A stretch of DNA of 37,190 bases from assembly GCA_013152215.1 (NCBI GenBank), contig JAADGT010000352.1, positions 1 through 37,190 on the forward strand, written 5' to 3'. Positions within the stretch are counted from its first letter, which is position 1. Every line of letters begins with the position of its first letter. This document shows positions 4,387 through 37,110 of this stretch, piece after piece. The stretch comes from Deltaproteobacteria bacterium (lineage in GTDB: Bacteria > Desulfobacterota > Deferrisomatia > Deferrisomatales > Deferrisomataceae). The notes under the pieces are model-generated. The model was not told the DNA's origin. It did no database searches and saw only the letters and a program-made list of their open reading frames with translations. The position numbers were made by a program, and so were the translations under genes.

Positions 4387-6024
4387 GTGATGGGAACCTC
4401 GAGGTTGCGAGTTTTGGCAAACCAACGAGTGAACGGCAGCCATCCCCTCCGGGATCGGGGGGCCAAGGGACCTGCCGGAGAGCCGGACGCGGCCCCGCGG
4501 CCCCCCGTACCCCGAACCCCCTGGATCCGGAAGGCGGCGTGGGTCCTGGCGATGTGCCTGGTGGCCGCCACCACGGCCACGGCCAACCCCGGAGGCTCCC
4601 TCGAGGGCCGGGTGCAGGAGCACCGTCTGGCGAACGGGCTCACCGTACTGGCCCTGCGCCGGGGGGTGGCTCCGGTGGTGAGCCTGCAGATGACCTTTCG
4701 GGTGGGCGGGGTGGACGAGCCGTCGGGCTACACCGGCATGGCCCACCTGCTGGAGCACCTCTTGTTCAAGGGGACCCGGACCTTGGGAACCCGGGACTGG
4801 CAGAAGGAGGAGCCCCTGCTGCGGCGGATCGAGCGGGTGGGGCGGGCCCTGGACCGCGAACGGCGCAAAGGGGACCGGGCCGACCCCCGGGAGATCGAGC
4901 GCCTGCGGGCGGAGCTCCGGCGGCTGCAGGAGGAGCACCGGTCCCTGGTGATCAAGGACGAGATCGACGCCATCTACACCCGCAACGGGGCCGTGGGGTT
5001 CAACGCGTTCACCAGCTCGGACCTCACCAGCTACATCGTGAGCCTGCCGTCGAACCGGTTGGAGCTGTGGGCCCGGATCGAGTCGGAGCGGATGCGCGAC
5101 CCCGTGTTGCGGGAGTACTACGTGGAGCGCGACGTGGTGGTGGAGGAGCGGCGCCAGCGCTACGGGTCGGACCCGGACGGCCGGCTCTACGAGACCCTGC
5201 TGTCCACGGCGTTCCGGGCCCACCCCTACCGGGACCCCGTGATCGGCTGGCCGGCCGACCTGGAGACCCTGGACCTGGAAGCCACCCGGCGGTTCTTCCG
5301 GGACTACTACGGGCCCGACAACGCCGTGATCGTGGCCGTGGGCGACGTGGACCCGCCCGCGTTCTTCCGGCTGGTGGAGCGGTACTTCGGCGACCTGCCG
5401 GCCCGAGGGGTGTCGCGCCGGCCGATCACCCGGGAGCCCCCGCAGCAGGGGCCCCGACGGGCCGAGGTGTGGTTCGACGCCGAGCCCCGCCTGGTGGTGG
5501 CGTTCCACAAGCCCACCCTCCCCCACCGGGACGACTACGTGTTCGACGTGATCGAGGCCGTGCTCACCGATGGGCGAAGCTCCCGGCTGGTGCGCGAGCT
5601 GGTGGACCGGCGCCGGGTGGCCGCCTCGGTGAGCGCGGCCAACGGGCTGCCGGGCGCCCGGTACCCCAATCTGTTCGCGGTGTTCCTGACCCCGCTGCAG
5701 GGGGTGGACGTGGGCGAGGCCGAGCGGGCGCTCCTGGCCGAGCTGGACCGGTTGGGCCGCGAGCCACCCACCCGGGAGGAGCTGGAACGGGTGCTTCGCC
5801 GGCTCGAGGCCTCGCGGGTGCGCAGCCTGCTGTCCAACTCCGGGCTGGCTAGGCGGCTGGCCTACTTCCAGGCCCTGACCGGCGACTGGCGCTACATCGA
5901 GGAGCACCCCCGGGTGCTTCGGACCATCACCCCTGACGAGGTGGCCGCGGTGGCCCGCCGGTACCTGACTCCCCAGAACCGCACCGTGGTGGTGCTGCGG
6001 CCCCGCCCGGAGGAGGACCGATGA
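4387..6024 (+). CDS. M16 (pitrilysin) family zinc peptidase, catalytic subunit, exported; true start uncertain (4387-4552)
   Basis: LANGLTV, GMAHLLEHLLFKG (inverted HXXEH), NAFTS, ERDVVVEERR; signal-like stretch IRKAAWVLAMCLVAATTATA. Confidence 0.9.
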   Translation: MMGTSRLRVLANQRVNGSHPLRDRGAKGPAGEPDAAPRPPVPRTPWIRKAAWVLAMCLVAATTATANPGGSLEGRVQEHRLANGLTVLALRRGVAPVVSLQMTFRVGGVDEPSGYTGMAHLLEHLLFKGTRTLGTRDWQKEEPLLRRIERVGRALDRERRKGDRADPREIERLRAELRRLQEEHRSLVIKDEIDAIYTRNGAVGFNAFTSSDLTSYIVSLPSNRLELWARIESERMRDPVLREYYVERDVVVEERRQRYGSDPDGRLYETLLSTAFRAHPYRDPVIGWPADLETLDLEATRRFFRDYYGPDNAVIVAVGDVDPPAFFRLVERYFGDLPARGVSRRPITREPPQQGPRRAEVWFDAEPRLVVAFHKPTLPHRDDYVFDVIEAVLTDGRSSRLVRELVDRRRVAASVSAANGLPGARYPNLFAVFLTPLQGVDVGEAERALLAELDRLGREPPTREELERVLRRLEASRVRSLLSNSGLARRLAYFQALTGDWRYIEEHPRVLRTITPDEVAAVARRYLTPQNRTVVVLRPRPEEDR

Positions 6025-12791: not shown

Positions 12792-12898
12792 GGTCCTTTC
12801 CTCCTGTGTAACGGGAGCGCCGTGGGAAAGCTAGAAGGCTGGAAGGCCAGAGGGCCTTCGGTCCGCCGGGCGGCTCTCGAACCGCGCCAAATCTCGGT

Positions 12899-13082
12899 GG
12901 GCGTGGGGTCTGCTGGAGAGCCGCGTGCGGCTCCTTGGCTCGCCGCGCAGCGCCTCCAGCGCTCGCACCGTGAATTCGTTCAGGCCCCACCAAACTGTCA
13001 TGAACCCCCCGCCCGTGTCCCGTGCCTGCGCGGCGAATCTCATGCCCGGCTTCGCGCGCGGCCGGAAGCAGACCCCACGCCC
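12899..13082 (-). repeat. ~184-bp structured dispersed element, copy 1 (candidate ncRNA or MITE)
   Basis: 16-bp perfect terminal inverted repeat GGGCGTGGGGTCTGCT/AGCAGACCCCACGCCC; reverse complement aligns with 24382-24552. Confidence 0.85.
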
Positions 13083-14755: not shown

Positions 14756-14834
14756 CGGGTTCCCTCCGTGAATCTGGCTGGGAGGCTAGAAGGCTAGGAG
14801 GCAGGTCCCTTGCCCCGCCCTCCGAGGTGTCGCG

Positions 14835-17412: not shown

Positions 17413-17422
17413 GGTTCCCTAA

Positions 17423-17550
17423 AGTCGGTCTTCGGTCGTCAGTCTGCGGTCGCCGGTCGTTGGGAACTGCCGTGAATCGGGAAGGCCGTAAATCGTAAAT
17501 CGTGAATCGTTGGGACCTTCAAGCCTCCCAGCTTTCTAGCCTTCCCGCCT
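17423..17550. repeat. Heptamer arrays followed by an inverted octamer array, filling the livH-livM spacer
   Basis: CGTCAGT CTGCGGT CGCCGGT CGTTGGG; CGTAAAT CGTAAAT CGTGAAT; then TTCAAGCC TCCCAGCT TTCTAGCC TTCCCGCC. Confidence 0.75.
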
Positions 17551-20846: not shown

Positions 20847-21141
20847 GGAAGTCCTCCTTTTGTCGGCTGATAAGGCTGGAAAGCTGGGAGGCGTCCCAAC
20901 GTCCATTATTAACCCGGCGGATAAACAGGCGCTATCGCTCCCTGCTCGCTCGGAGGGGCAAGGGACCTGCCGGAGAGCCGGGCGCGGCCAGATCAGGGGC
21001 CAGAATTCAGATGACAGTAGACAGAAAGGGACTACCCCCGGGCAATTGGCGGGCCGTTTTTTCGGAACACCTGTCCTCTGGCCGCTGAAGTCTGTCTCCT
21101 GAAACCCTTGCCCCGCTCTCCGGGGTAACGCGCCTACTTCA

Positions 21142-21924: not shown

Positions 21925-21944
21925 GACTCGGTCTCCTTGTGAAA

Positions 21945-21987
21945 GGCTGGAAAGCTGGGAGGCTAGAAAGCTAGAAGGCTGGGAGGC
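21945..21987 (+). repeat. Octamer tandem array (RGCTRGRA)x5
   Basis: GGCTGGAA AGCTGGGA GGCTAGAA AGCTAGAA GGCTGGGA. Confidence 0.85.
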
Positions 21988-22228
21988 CTATTAGCCCGAC
22001 GAACACTTAGGCGCTATCGCCCCCTGATCGGAGGGGCAAGGGACCTGCGTTTCAGGAGCCAGAAGACAGAATCCAGAGAACGGGTTGCAACGTCGGATGC
22101 AGGAGCGTGCTCGTGGTCTTTTCCCGTCTCCGGTCTGCTGAATTCTGGTCCCTGACACCTATGCCCCCCGGCCGTGATATGAAGAGGCGTGGTGATGCTT
22201 AGAACGCCTGGAATTAGGTGGTTTTTTA

Positions 22229-22263
22229 AGCCTTCTAGCCTCCCAGCCTTCTAGCCTTCCAGC
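22229..22263 (-). repeat. Octamer tandem array, inverted partner of 21945-21987
   Basis: AGCC TTCTAGCC TCCCAGCC TTCTAGCC TTCCAGC. Confidence 0.85.
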
Positions 22264-22280
22264 GGGCCGAAAGTCCAAGG

Positions 22281-23517: not shown

Positions 23518-24312
23518 ATGGACGAACGGCCCATCCAGCTCCAGGTGGACGACATCCATCTGAGCTTCGGCGGAGTCAACGCCCTGATGGGCGTGGGGTT
23601 CCAGGTGTACAAGGGCGAGATCTTCTCGATCATCGGCCCCAACGGCGCGGGCAAGACGAGCATGCTCAACTGCATCAGCGGCCGGTACCACCCCCAGCGG
23701 GGCCGGATCGTGTTCGAGGGGCGGGAGATCACGAACCAGCCCCCGGCCACCCGCGCCGAGATCGGGATCTCGCGGACCTTTCAGAACATTGCGCTGTTCA
23801 AGGGGATGACCGTGCTCGACAACCTACTGATCGGGCGTCACATCCACCTGAAGACAGGGTTTCTGAAGGGTGGCATCTACCTGGGCCCTTGCCAGCGCGA
23901 GGAGATCGAGCACCGGAAGTTCGTGGAGGACATCATCGACTTCCTCGAGATCGAGCACATCCGCAAGAAGATCGTGGGTACCCTGGCCTACGGTCTGCAG
24001 AAGCGGGTGGAGCTGGCCCGGGCCCTGGCCCTCGATCCCAAGCTGATCCTCCTGGACGAGCCCATGGCCGGCATGAACCTGGAGGAGACCGAGGACATGG
24101 TGCGCTACATCCTCGACATCAACCAGGAGCGGGGGATCACGGTGATCCTGGTTGAGCACGACATGGGCGTGGTCATGGACATCTCGGACCGCATCGTGGT
24201 CCTCGATTTCGGCCAGAAGATCGGGGAGGGCACGCCCGACGAGGTGCAGAAGAACCCGGACGTGGTCCGGGCGTACCTCGGGGCCGAAGACGAAACCTTC
24301 TTGGGCCGGTAA
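23518..24312 (+). CDS. ABC transporter ATP-binding protein (LivG-like)
   Basis: GPNGAGKTS, SRTFQNIALF, YGLQKRVELARAL, LDEPMAGMN, VEHDM. Confidence 0.92.
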   Translation: MDERPIQLQVDDIHLSFGGVNALMGVGFQVYKGEIFSIIGPNGAGKTSMLNCISGRYHPQRGRIVFEGREITNQPPATRAEIGISRTFQNIALFKGMTVLDNLLIGRHIHLKTGFLKGGIYLGPCQREEIEHRKFVEDIIDFLEIEHIRKKIVGTLAYGLQKRVELARALALDPKLILLDEPMAGMNLEETEDMVRYILDINQERGITVILVEHDMGVVMDISDRIVVLDFGQKIGEGTPDEVQKNPDVVRAYLGAEDETFLGR

Positions 24313-24381
24313 GGCCGGGGGGCCGTCTGTTCGCGAAACGGGACTCGCACCGGCCCCCACGCTCCTCCGGCAGCGGGGTCC

Positions 24382-24552
24382 GGGGCCTGCTTCCGGCCGC
24401 GCGCGAAGCCGAGCATGAGATTCGCCGCGCAGGCACGGGGCATCAGGGGTGGCTTCATGATAGAGCAGTTGACACGAACGATTTCGCGGTGCGAGCGGTG
24501 GAAGCGCTGCGCGGCGAGCTAAGGAGCCGCACGCGGCTCTCCAGCAGGCCCC
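24382..24552 (+). repeat. Structured dispersed element, copy 2 (candidate ncRNA or MITE)
   Basis: Terminal inverted repeat GGGGCCTGCT/AGCAGGCCCC; scaffold nearly identical to the reverse complement of 12899-13082. Confidence 0.85.
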
Positions 24553-24691
24553 ATGCCCCCGGACCGTAAGGTCGAGGCGAAGAGGCATGGTGATTCCTAG
24601 AAGGCGTGGGAATCCGGGAGGTTTTCAAGCCTCCTAACGTCCCAGCCTCCCAGCGTCCTAGCGGAAGTTACATGGAAGGGAGGAACAGCGG

Positions 24692-30878: not shown

Positions 30879-30913
30879 GAAGGCTGGAAAGCTAGGAGGC
30901 TGGAAGGCTGGAT
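30874..30913 (+). repeat. Octamer tandem array directly after a stop codon
   Basis: GGCTGGAA AGCTAGGA GGCTGGAA GGCTGGAT. Confidence 0.85.
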
Positions 30914-31058
30914 GGCCACAGATCGGCACAGATTTGCACGGATTTTGGGAGGGACGAGGGCTCCCTGCCGTGGAGAGGTAGCCGGCGGAACCGGCTGCTG
31001 GTGGGGTTGAGACCTCCGCTTTTCCTCCATCTGTGTTCATCTGTGTAAATCTGTGGCC
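30914..31058. repeat. Inverted pair of 9-bp tandem arrays (CACAGATNN)x3
   Basis: GGCCACAGATCGGCACAGATTTGCACGGAT ... ATCTGTGTTCATCTGTGTAAATCTGTGGCC. Confidence 0.8.
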
Positions 31059-31213
31059 GATGGGTTGCGAAAACGCTGGAAGGCCGTTCGTCGCGGGGCG
31101 CTGGTCGTTCGTGGCGCGGGCGCACCGATGCCTTCGATGGGGTTTCCCAACCACCAACGACTGACGACCAACGACTGACGATTGACAACCGCATTTCCGG
31201 AGGGGATCCAGAC

Positions 31214-35775: not shown

Positions 35776-36503
35776 TCACAGGGTCTTGGGAATCGGGGGC
35801 AGGCTAAGGGCCTTAAGAATCCGGGCTTGTTCCCTCGGGGGCCGGGTCGGTAGGCGCGTCGGCGTGGCTCCCACCACCAGTTCCACCACCTTGTTCCGCT
35901 GCAGAAGAGCCACGGCCCGGGGTGCCGATAGCCCCAACGGCCGGAGTCGGTTGCGCATCCAGCGCTCCATTTGCAGCGCCAACACGCACACGAAGATGTG
36001 GGCCCGGATCCGACGCTCGGTCCAGTGGTACACGGGCCGGACTTTCACGGTGCTCTTCAGGTTCCGCCACCCTCGCTCGATCTCCGCCAGTTCCTTGTAC
36101 CGGACGACGACCTCTTCTGGCGGGAGATTCATGTCTGTTGTTTCCACGAGCAGCACCCCGTCGATTTTTGCCTCCCACAGGAGGGCCCTGCGGTTCTTGG
36201 TCACTTGGAAGCCGTCGGTCTCCGAGGGCGTGAGGTCGTAGAACTTCAGCAACCCCTTGTCCCGGAAATAGTCCCGAATCCGATGGTACGTTCCCTGTGG
36301 GGTGGGCCGACGCCCCCGCCCCGAGGGCCGGGCCAAGGCCTCCAGCCGTTCCCGGATCCATGCGTCGGCCTGGGTCAAGCGGTCTTCCCGAGCCTTTTGG
36401 GTCTCCCGTGCGATTGTGGGTGAATAGGCGGCGACGAACCGTACCCCTGCCGGACGTCCTCGAAGAACTGCTCCGTTGTACCTCCCGAAAGAGTGGGTGA
36501 ACG
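35776..36503 (-). pseudogene. IS1634 family transposase, C-terminal fragment
   Basis: IDGVLLVETT, YKELAEIERGWRNLKS, VRPVYHWTERRIRAHIFVCVLA; N-terminal half missing. Confidence 0.8.
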
Positions 36504-37110
36504 TGTGGTGTCCCGGATAAAGCAAGACACTTTTTGCCGGAGGAAATCCCCTTGTGAGTGATCATGCTGCGGCTTGCAGCCTAAGATTCCGGGCCCGCCG
36601 CTCTACCGGCGTCTCCCATCCGAGCGCCTGGTGAGGTCGACCGTGGTTGTACTCGATCAGCCATGCCGCGATGGCCGCCCGAAGCTCCGTGATCGACTCC
36701 CAGTCATGCGTCCAGATCAGCTCCACCTTCAGCGTCTGGATGAACCGCTCCGCCACCGCATTGCCCGTGGGCCGTCCCACAGGCGCCAGCGTGTGCTCCA
36801 GCCCCCAATGCCGGCACAGATCCTCGCAGTCCTTGCCCGTGTACTGACTCCCATGATCCGTGCGCAGTTCCAACCCCCAAGGCACGTTCCCGGGCTCGGC
36901 GAACTCTCGTACCAGGGATCGGGCTACCGGAGAGAGCACCATCGCGGCCTCCCGGCTTTTCATCACCTCGCACGCCAACGCGTAGCGATCCCCACAGTCG
37001 ATCACCGGCACCACCGTGACCCAGCCGTCCCGGACAGTCCACACGCTCGTCAGGTCCGTTGCCCACCGCCGGTTAGATTCTCTCACGGCCACCTGGCCTG
37101 TTGGCACCTT
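36504..37110 (-). mobile_element. IS3 family element remnant: integrase-core (DDE) ORF 36562-37107 plus terminal repeat at 36504
   Basis: WATDLT, LRTDHGSQY, GNAVAERF, YNHGRPHQALG; the end begins TGTGGTGTCCCGGA (IS3-type 5'-TG); OrfA and N-terminus absent. Confidence 0.8.

What the first reader, a model, noticed from the sequence alone, without database searches (positions are those of the whole stretch)
12899..13082. Two-copy ~180-nt structured element with compensatory mutations and two variable 14-16 nt segments (copy 1)
Seen: the reverse complement of 12899-13082 aligns with 24382-24552. The closing stem covaries (GGGGtCTGCT/AGCAGaCCCC vs GGGGcCTGCT/AGCAGgCCCC), as does an inner hairpin (tGAA-cgaa-TTCa vs cGAA-cgat-TTCg). 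Invariant helices are TCGCCGCGCAG/CTGCGCGGCGA and GAGCCG-cacg-CGGCTC. Most divergence falls in two blocks flanking a fixed TTCATGA: ACACGGGCGGGGGG vs GCATCAGGGGTGGC and CAGTTTGGTGGGGCCT vs TAGAGCAGTTGACAC. Both copies lie sense to the surrounding genes, ~110-140 nt before a start codon, with a pyrimidine octamer array in between. Inference: an unannotated structured RNA or non-autonomous mobile element; a conserved scaffold with variable loops is what a guide-bearing RNA would look like, but relaxed selection on loops explains it too. I do not recognise it as a known family.
Basis: partly seen in the sequence, partly recalled or inferred. Interest (0 to 1): 0.85.

Follow-up and report, generated by a model that had tools for sequence, protein, structure and literature searches.

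The report
Shared hairpin core of mosaic MITEs
The two stretches are copies of a non-coding hairpin that occurs over 120 times between the genes of this bacterium, sits inside several kinds of tiny gene-less mobile units and is present or absent at the same sites in close relatives, so it is likely parasitic repeat DNA and not a guide RNA.

Summary
The genome holds 126 near-full copies, a complete relative 142. Matches are confined to the host family. Of 80 orthologous intergenic regions carrying it, only 10 carry it in both genomes. Window copy 2 is a 362-bp insertion absent from five relatives.

The 185-nt hairpin is a passenger core inside three unrelated wrappers. W1 is TA-flanked, with ends matching an IS630 in the relative. 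W2 makes a 3-bp TNA duplication. W3 is asymmetric, bounded by GGAAG, mobiliser not found; it holds both window copies.

The variable blocks are subfamily-typed arms around one conserved loop and do not match their flanks: no guides. Orientation follows replication.

Verdict: a new MITE/BIME-like mosaic repeat family. This scan noted one wrapper end and similar mosaics before, on other DNA.

The parts
12897..13082 (-).
   Evidence: shared with G001 and G002 at 97-98% identity
12801..13161 (-). W3-type wrapper around copy 1: GGAAG at 13161-13157, left small hairpin and GTAAC arm, core, GAA mini-hairpin at 12852-12864, octamer array, degenerate right end touching the ribosome-binding site of the Bmp-family gene (ATG 12791)
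24376..24560 (+). Type-A hairpin core, copy 2
24312..24673 (+). Whole inserted unit carrying copy 2 (362 bp; W3-variant left arm, core, octamer array, GAAGTTACAT end), placed before the GGAAG/Shine-Dalgarno of the AMP-binding-enzyme gene; absent at the orthologous site in G001-G005
20893..21139 (.). Relative of the same superfamily: W1 (IS630-type) end and core arm with a different, heptamer-rich interior
21940..22280 (.). Another superfamily member: octamer arrays, core arm and D-type interior
4443..4507 (-). Isolated right half of the core arms
14797..14834 (-). Isolated left core arm with part of a W1 end and an octamer array

Best explanation
The element is the shared 185-nt hairpin core of an abundant, family-restricted set of gene-less intergenic repeats; it likely spreads as a passenger in small non-autonomous mobile wrappers moved by transposases in trans, and is likely swapped between wrappers by recombination in its conserved outer arms. 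Shown: the copy number, the filled and empty sites, three wrappers with three different target signatures, the IS630 whose ends match wrapper W1, different interiors inside one orthologous wrapper, and the replication-linked orientation. Inferred: IS630 transposase moves W1; another DDE transposase moves W2; W3, which holds both window copies, is moved by a single-strand (IS200/IS605-like) route inserting after GGAAG; exchange of cores is by recombination or gene conversion. The variable blocks are the fast-evolving arms of the innermost hairpin. Any effect on mRNA (most copies would be co-transcribed) is inferred to be a by-product.
For: Copy number: 126 near-full copies in G000; 142 motif matches in G002, control 0; the repeat superfamily covers 4.6% of G000 and 30% of its intergenic DNA. 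Mobility: of 695 orthologous intergenic regions the core is in both genomes in 10, in G002 only in 38, in G000 only in 32; copy 2 is absent from 5 of 5 relatives. W2: 3-bp duplication identical on both sides in 77 of 107 end pairs (most elements counted on both strands) against 34 shuffled, with clean filled/empty cases. W1: G002 holds three intact and one interrupted 1107-bp element with nearly the same terminal repeats, TA on both sides, and a DDE_3 transposase. W3: GGAAG-like pentamer outside the left end and at the tip of the right end, host-like bases before the left one, small hairpins near both ends, as described for IS200/IS605 in PMC5027513. Exchange: the same arms enclose at least five interiors; of 70 one-sided sites 19 hold another core and 19 only the arms in the other genome; one orthologous wrapper has core A in G000 and a 20-nt interior in G002. 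Orientation in G002: 66 of 87 on the leading strand (genes 61%); sense:antisense 36:4 in leading-strand operons but 6:8 in lagging-strand ones.
Against: No mobiliser was found for W3 or W2. The IS200 in G002 has unrelated ends; IS110 is in 2 of 5 relatives only; no IS630 was found in G000 (82% complete) or G001. The TA duplication of W1 cannot be told from a fixed motif (12 of 26 vs 9.5 shuffled). Whether W3 duplicates its pentamer is unresolved (19 of 57 vs 15.7 shuffled, p 0.08). Wobble pairs are kept on the strand opposite to the one that an IS200/IS605-type route would use, which a pure passenger model does not explain. Only 23 orthologous regions gave a clean single gap; many sites are too rearranged to read. 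Half of the G002 stretches were chosen because they held the element, which inflates the G002-only count.
Confidence: 0.8

Rival explanations
1. The core is not a mere passenger but an active single-stranded module: its fold on the strand opposite to the reader's (as ssDNA or antisense RNA) is recognised by an unknown protein that copies it from wrapper to wrapper.
For: On that strand 98.3% of cells pair over 48 pairs, and 13 pairs change on both sides (0 of 500 shuffles). Length is nearly fixed (114 of 173 arm pairs at 180-189 nt, most of them this type). The same core sits in three unrelated wrappers. The substitution skew holds in both replication orientations.
Against: The same G>A/T>C skew is seen outside the three main helices, so a mutational bias can produce part of the signal. 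Most double changes separate two subfamilies and are few independent events. No partner gene was found.
Confidence: 0.2
2. A host-selected cis-regulatory RNA (mRNA stability or processing element) spread to many leaders.
For: 49 sense against 14 antisense copies between co-directional genes, and 1 of 123 overlapping a gene. The W3 right end lies within 13 nt of a start codon in 32 of 124 cases. Related repeats act on mRNA (PMC2229807, PMC3049150).
Against: Only 10 of 80 sites are shared between close relatives. Neighbouring genes are unrelated. The sense bias vanishes in lagging-strand operons. The better-kept fold is on the antisense strand for most copies.
Confidence: 0.08
3. A guide-bearing RNA (bridge-RNA-like) whose two variable blocks address target or donor DNA.
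For: Size and layout (scaffold with two variable blocks around a small loop). In one subfamily (50 copies) an arm plus the loop resembles the left end of wrapper W2 (0 of 1000 shuffles; 1 of 30 comparisons). The 12-mers of the second arm occur elsewhere in the genome more often than shuffled ones (0.51 vs 0.38). A non-autonomous sRNA unit of an IS110 element is known (PMC12288879).
Against: No match to own flanks. Arms are shared by up to 20 copies and change by point substitutions. The arms pair with each other in several subfamilies. IS110 is missing from 3 of 5 relatives searched, including element-rich G001; where present it has inserted into the repeat rather than carrying it. The W2 likeness is absent from the subfamily of the window copies and is also explained by an old nested MITE end.
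Confidence: 0.04

Closest known systems
IS630-derived MITEs (RUP; TA-flanked ERIC and Correia elements; PMC2229807, PMC3184786)
   Same: Gene-less, intergenic, long stem-loop, TA-flanked terminal repeats matching an IS630 (wrapper W1); short and long forms that differ by an internal module.
   Different: Here one core is shared by three wrappers with different ends and target signatures; it is GC-rich; the two window copies are in a wrapper without terminal inverted repeats.
BOX elements of Streptococcus and BIMEs/REPs of Proteobacteria (PMC3049150, PMC3184786)
   Same: Modular mosaics with variable tandem modules, nested in one another, targeted by IS110-family elements.
   Different: Modules are longer (140-200 nt interiors); no flanked RAYT gene was found; no sequence relation was tested or seen.
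IS200/IS605 elements and their non-autonomous derivatives (PMC5027513; the term PATE is recalled)
   Same: W3 has a target-like pentamer before its left end, a similar pentamer at its right tip, hairpins near both ends and a leading-strand orientation bias.
   Different: No TnpA with matching ends; some copies suggest a true short duplication; wobble pairs of the core favour the other strand.
MITEPpu9/ssr9 of ISPpu9 (PMC12288879)
   Same: A small structured unit hitchhiking on the ends of an IS.
   Different: Ssr9 is a shown sRNA in 8 copies flanked by IS110 ends; here over 120 copies, no RNA evidence, other ends.
Multicopy intergenic sequences of Geobacter (PMC2700814) and TAACTGA heptamer repeats of Beggiatoaceae (PMC4679880)
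   Same: Heptamer and octamer arrays and palindromic families in intergenic DNA, often just before start codons.
   Different: Those papers read them as regulatory sites; here the arrays are parts of wrappers that are shown to come and go. I saw passages only, not the supplementary alignments.

Membership tests
MITE (wrappers W1, W2 with the core) | Terminal inverted repeats around a non-coding core | tested here: met
   W1 and W2 end pairs mostly 250-300 nt apart when they hold a core, no gene inside
MITE (wrappers W1, W2 with the core) | Target-site duplication | tested here: met
   W2: 77 of 107 vs 34 shuffled, and filled/empty pairs; W1: TA on both sides in 12 of 26, not separable from a fixed motif
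MITE (wrappers W1, W2 with the core) | Ends shared with an autonomous IS | tested here: met
   W1: IS630 in G002. W2: none seen in 24 loci from other genera, judged from the first residues of the longest frames only
MITE (wrapper W3, the window copies) | Terminal inverted repeats and a copy-specific duplication | tested here: not met
   ends are asymmetric; pentamer match 19 of 57 vs 15.7 shuffled
IS200/IS605 non-autonomous derivative (W3) | Left end 3' of a fixed tetra- or pentanucleotide, subterminal hairpins | tested here: met
   definition from PMC5027513
IS200/IS605 non-autonomous derivative (W3) | Active strand on the lagging-strand template | tested here: inconclusive
   W3 right ends 63 leading vs 23 lagging, left ends 26 vs 18; W1, B, C and D parts show the same bias
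IS200/IS605 non-autonomous derivative (W3) | Cognate Y1 transposase with matching ends | tested here: not met
   Y1 hits in G000 and in 4 of 5 relatives, none with W3 ends
REP/BIME with RAYT | RAYT gene flanked by the repeats | tested here: not met
   one repeat beside a RAYT-like gene in G001 only
IS110 bridge RNA | Variable loops matching target and donor DNA | tested here: not met
IS110 bridge RNA | Lies in the non-coding end of an IS110 element | tested here: not met
Known Rfam family | Covariance-model match | tested here: not met
   0 of 5 weak matches lie on the element
Expressed structured RNA | Discrete transcript | not testable with these tools
   no RNA holder listed

The most novel reading that the evidence does not exclude
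The core is a selfish single-stranded hairpin module: folded on one defined strand, it hops between unrelated miniature transposons (an IS630 MITE, a TNA-duplicating MITE and a GGAAG-targeting HUH-like unit) with the help of an undescribed enzyme, which would make it a parasite of MITEs and the engine of intergenic mosaics in this phylum.
Probability: 0.2. Interest if true: 0.65.

Novelty: new member of a known kind. Interest (0 to 1): 0.32.

Why it matters
It removes a guide-RNA candidate and explains about 5% of this genome as fast-turning mosaic repeat DNA. It is a clear natural case of one structured core riding in three unrelated miniature elements, one with its parent IS630 in hand, so how bacterial mosaic repeats (BIME, BOX) exchange modules becomes testable. 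It also warns that covariation in such repeats does not show a functional RNA, and that the folded strand can be the one opposite to the genes.

Tried and rejected
Rfam over the window: 5 weak matches, none on the element.

Viral contigs: 4 exact 18-mer matches, all inside unrelated sequence without the rest of the element.

GTDB scan for both arms with a 71-131 nt interior: 1 match, another member of the same superfamily.

Covariance model: 0 of 15 genomes of the order outside the family, and only family members among 151 phylum genomes, with 17 candidates scored per genome. W3 left-end pattern: 4 of 401 genomes, all in the family.

Partner-gene search: 71 of 2759 genes have repeats on both sides, no family enriched; the 18 short ones are ordinary or without a Pfam match.

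Candidate mobilisers rejected or unproven: IS200 of G002; RAYT-like genes (the conserved single-copy one has His where I recall the catalytic Tyr); IS110; the multi-copy DDE_Tnp_1 element of G002, whose ends are unrelated; DDE_Tnp_4 0 of 6; Y2_Tnp 0 of 6, but its control did not ring, so uninformative; one group II intron-type RT.

Expression: no RNA holder listed; three metatranscriptomes gave no cover of the element, which says nothing. No promoter-like or terminator-like site at copy 1.

The arm-pairing energy test was weak (own -10.5 vs cross-subfamily -9.8 kcal/mol). The ARAGORN count was not interpretable and is not used. The W3 duplication test was off by one base and was repeated.

Literature searches found no description of this family. 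The supplementary MITE catalogue of PMC11602168 and the Geobacter supplements were not opened and may hold related units.

Full report
Observation. A covariance model built later places them at 12897-13082 and 24376-24560. They fold better than shuffles (z -5.06 and -2.43), and none of 5 weak Rfam matches in the window lies on them. Their neighbours are ordinary genes: Sir2 and a Bmp-type binding protein for copy 1, an ABC ATPase and an AMP-binding enzyme for copy 2.

It is a large family. Genome G000 (3.05 Mb, 82% complete) has 313 blastn hits, 126 of them over 140 nt, and 246 nhmmer hits, 148 covering at least 160 positions. A 17-nt motif occurs 142 times in the single-contig relative G002, its reversed control 0 times. 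The covariance model finds 124, 125 and 125 of 125 scored candidates in G000, G002 and G001, 51 in G004, 10 in G003 and 2 weak ones in G005. It finds none in the 15 other genomes of the order, and only family members among 151 phylum genomes. The same outer arms also enclose other interiors of about 188, 203 and 143 nt and a 53-nt minimal form. Repeats with 5 or more hits fill 140,523 nt, 30% of intergenic DNA and 4.6% of the genome.

It comes and goes. I compared 80 stretches of 20 kb of G002 (1.6 of 4.2 Mb; 40 of them chosen for holding the element) with G000. Of 695 orthologous intergenic regions, 10 have the core in both genomes, 38 in G002 only, 32 in G000 only and 615 in neither. At the 70 one-sided sites the other genome has no repeat part in 27, only the arms in 19, another core in 19 and only a wrapper end in 5. 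One orthologous wrapper holds core A in G000 and a 20-nt interior in G002, which shows exchange or loss inside a fixed wrapper. Copy 2 is part of a 362-bp unit (24312-24673) that is absent in G001, G002, G003, G004 and G005, so it is a derived insertion. Copy 1 is shared by G000, G001 and G002 and has drifted, including in its loop.

Three wrappers. W1 has inverted ends and often TA on both sides (12 of 26; 9.5 expected after shuffling, because TA is nearly fixed). G002 carries three intact and one interrupted 1107-bp element with nearly the same ends and TA flanks. Its 345-aa protein matches DDE_3 and HTH_33, an IS630-type transposase (family label from my knowledge of these domains). None was found in G000 or G001. 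W2 has inverted ends and a 3-bp TNA duplication, identical on both sides in 77 of 107 end pairs, most elements counted twice, against 34 shuffled. Its end occurs in 28 of 401 phylum genomes, where it wraps other hairpins and showed no obvious transposase in 24 loci. W3, around both window copies, is asymmetric. A GGAAG-like pentamer precedes its left end with host-like bases before it, the same pentamer closes its right end, and small hairpins lie near both ends. Copy-specific duplication is not shown (19 of 57 vs 15.7, p 0.08). Core subfamilies are enriched in, but not confined to, one wrapper: subfamily 2 has 44 W3 and 2 W1 of 65; subfamily 9 has 30 W1, 8 W2 and 1 W3 of 50.

The variable blocks. 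Among 176 full copies the inner region forms 16 clusters (65, 50, 19, 13, 10, 5 and smaller). The commonest left arms are shared by 20 and 17 copies. In several subfamilies the two blocks pair around the loop, though the energy test across subfamilies is weak (-10.5 vs -9.8). They match their own flanks no better than foreign flanks. Inner columns deviate from the subfamily majority at 0.10, stems at 0.034. Two results lean the other way. The 12-mers of the second arm are found elsewhere more often than shuffled ones (0.51 vs 0.38; first arm 0.50 vs 0.48). In subfamily 9 an arm plus the loop resembles the W2 left end (0 of 1000 shuffles, 1 of 30 comparisons). I read the latter as an old nested MITE end (inference).

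Strand and orientation. On the opposite strand 98.3% of 1920 cells pair and 13 of 48 pairs change on both sides (0 of 500 shuffles, relatedness not controlled). Against over-reading this: the same G>A/T>C skew is present outside the main helices (overall 218 vs 132), and single copies fold about equally on both strands. In G000, 49 copies are sense and 14 antisense between co-directional genes, 14 convergent, 14 divergent, 31 at contig edges and 1 overlapping a gene. In G002, with replichores assigned from third-position skew, 66 of 87 lie on the leading strand; sense:antisense is 36:4 in leading-strand operons and 6:8 in lagging-strand ones. So replication, not only transcription, sets the orientation.

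Mobiliser search. No gene family is bracketed by the repeats. The IS200 of G002 has other ends; RAYT-like genes are not flanked. An IS110 has inserted into a repeat arm in both G000 and G002 and an IS630 into a core, so the repeats are also targets.

Mechanism. Most likely the core is parasitic passenger DNA: wrappers are moved in trans (IS630 for W1, inferred from the ends; unknown enzymes for W2 and W3), and cores are exchanged through the shared arms (inferred). For W3 the closest route is single-strand insertion 3' of a fixed pentamer on the lagging-strand template, as for IS200/IS605 (PMC5027513 passages), but membership fails for want of a cognate transposase. An active single-stranded module (0.2), a host regulatory RNA (0.08) and a guide RNA (0.04) are the rivals.

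Literature seen. Passages of PMC2700814, PMC3184786, PMC3049150, PMC12288879, PMC4679880, PMC5027513 and PMC11602168; the first third of PMC2229807. They describe MITEs, BOX/BIME mosaics, heptamer arrays and an sRNA-bearing MITE. Searches found no account of this family; supplements were not opened. Earlier notes of this scan describe what looks like the W3 right end in another genome and similar mosaics elsewhere. Verdict: real, new as a sequence family, ordinary in kind; interest 0.32.

Noticed in passing
G000:C119:1-358 and L155:935-975 (G002): An IS110-family element is inserted in the GGGGCA arm of a W2 unit in both genomes, at different genes, like IS110 elements that target REPs.
   Followed up: partly
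L163 / L244 (G002:C1 about 715.4-720.1 kb): A pile-up of elements: W2 unit, IS110, an IS630 interrupted by a DDE_Tnp_1 element and an IS200, then a type-A core.
   Followed up: partly
L108:745-1845 (-), L101, L046, L099: A single-copy RAYT-like (Y1_Tnp) gene kept in four genomes of the genus; in G002 it has His where I recall the catalytic Tyr; possibly a domesticated, inactive HUH protein.
   Followed up: partly
L089:1400-1900: A four-helix-bundle (23S rRNA IVP) gene is bracketed by the same octamer arrays, in inverted orientation, that occur in the wrappers; three such genes in G000.
   Followed up: partly
L250-L273: The W2 terminal repeat occurs in 28 of 401 genomes of the phylum and wraps many different hairpin interiors; its parent transposase is unknown.
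   Followed up: partly
L049 and L033 (orthologues of window 12860-12870): In G002 (and, as far as shown, G001) a further 243-bp hairpin element sits in the right arm of copy 1, inside the octamer region; G000 lacks it.
   Followed up: no
window 35776-37107: DDE_Tnp_1 remnant and an integrase-core (IS3-like) fragment at the contig end, next to a PEP-CTERM gene.
   Followed up: no
L091:919-2625: A group II intron-type reverse transcriptase, the only RVT_1 match in G000.
   Followed up: no
window 17416-17550 and 30879-31201: Heptamer and 10-mer tandem arrays of the kind found in the wrappers, without a core.
   Followed up: no
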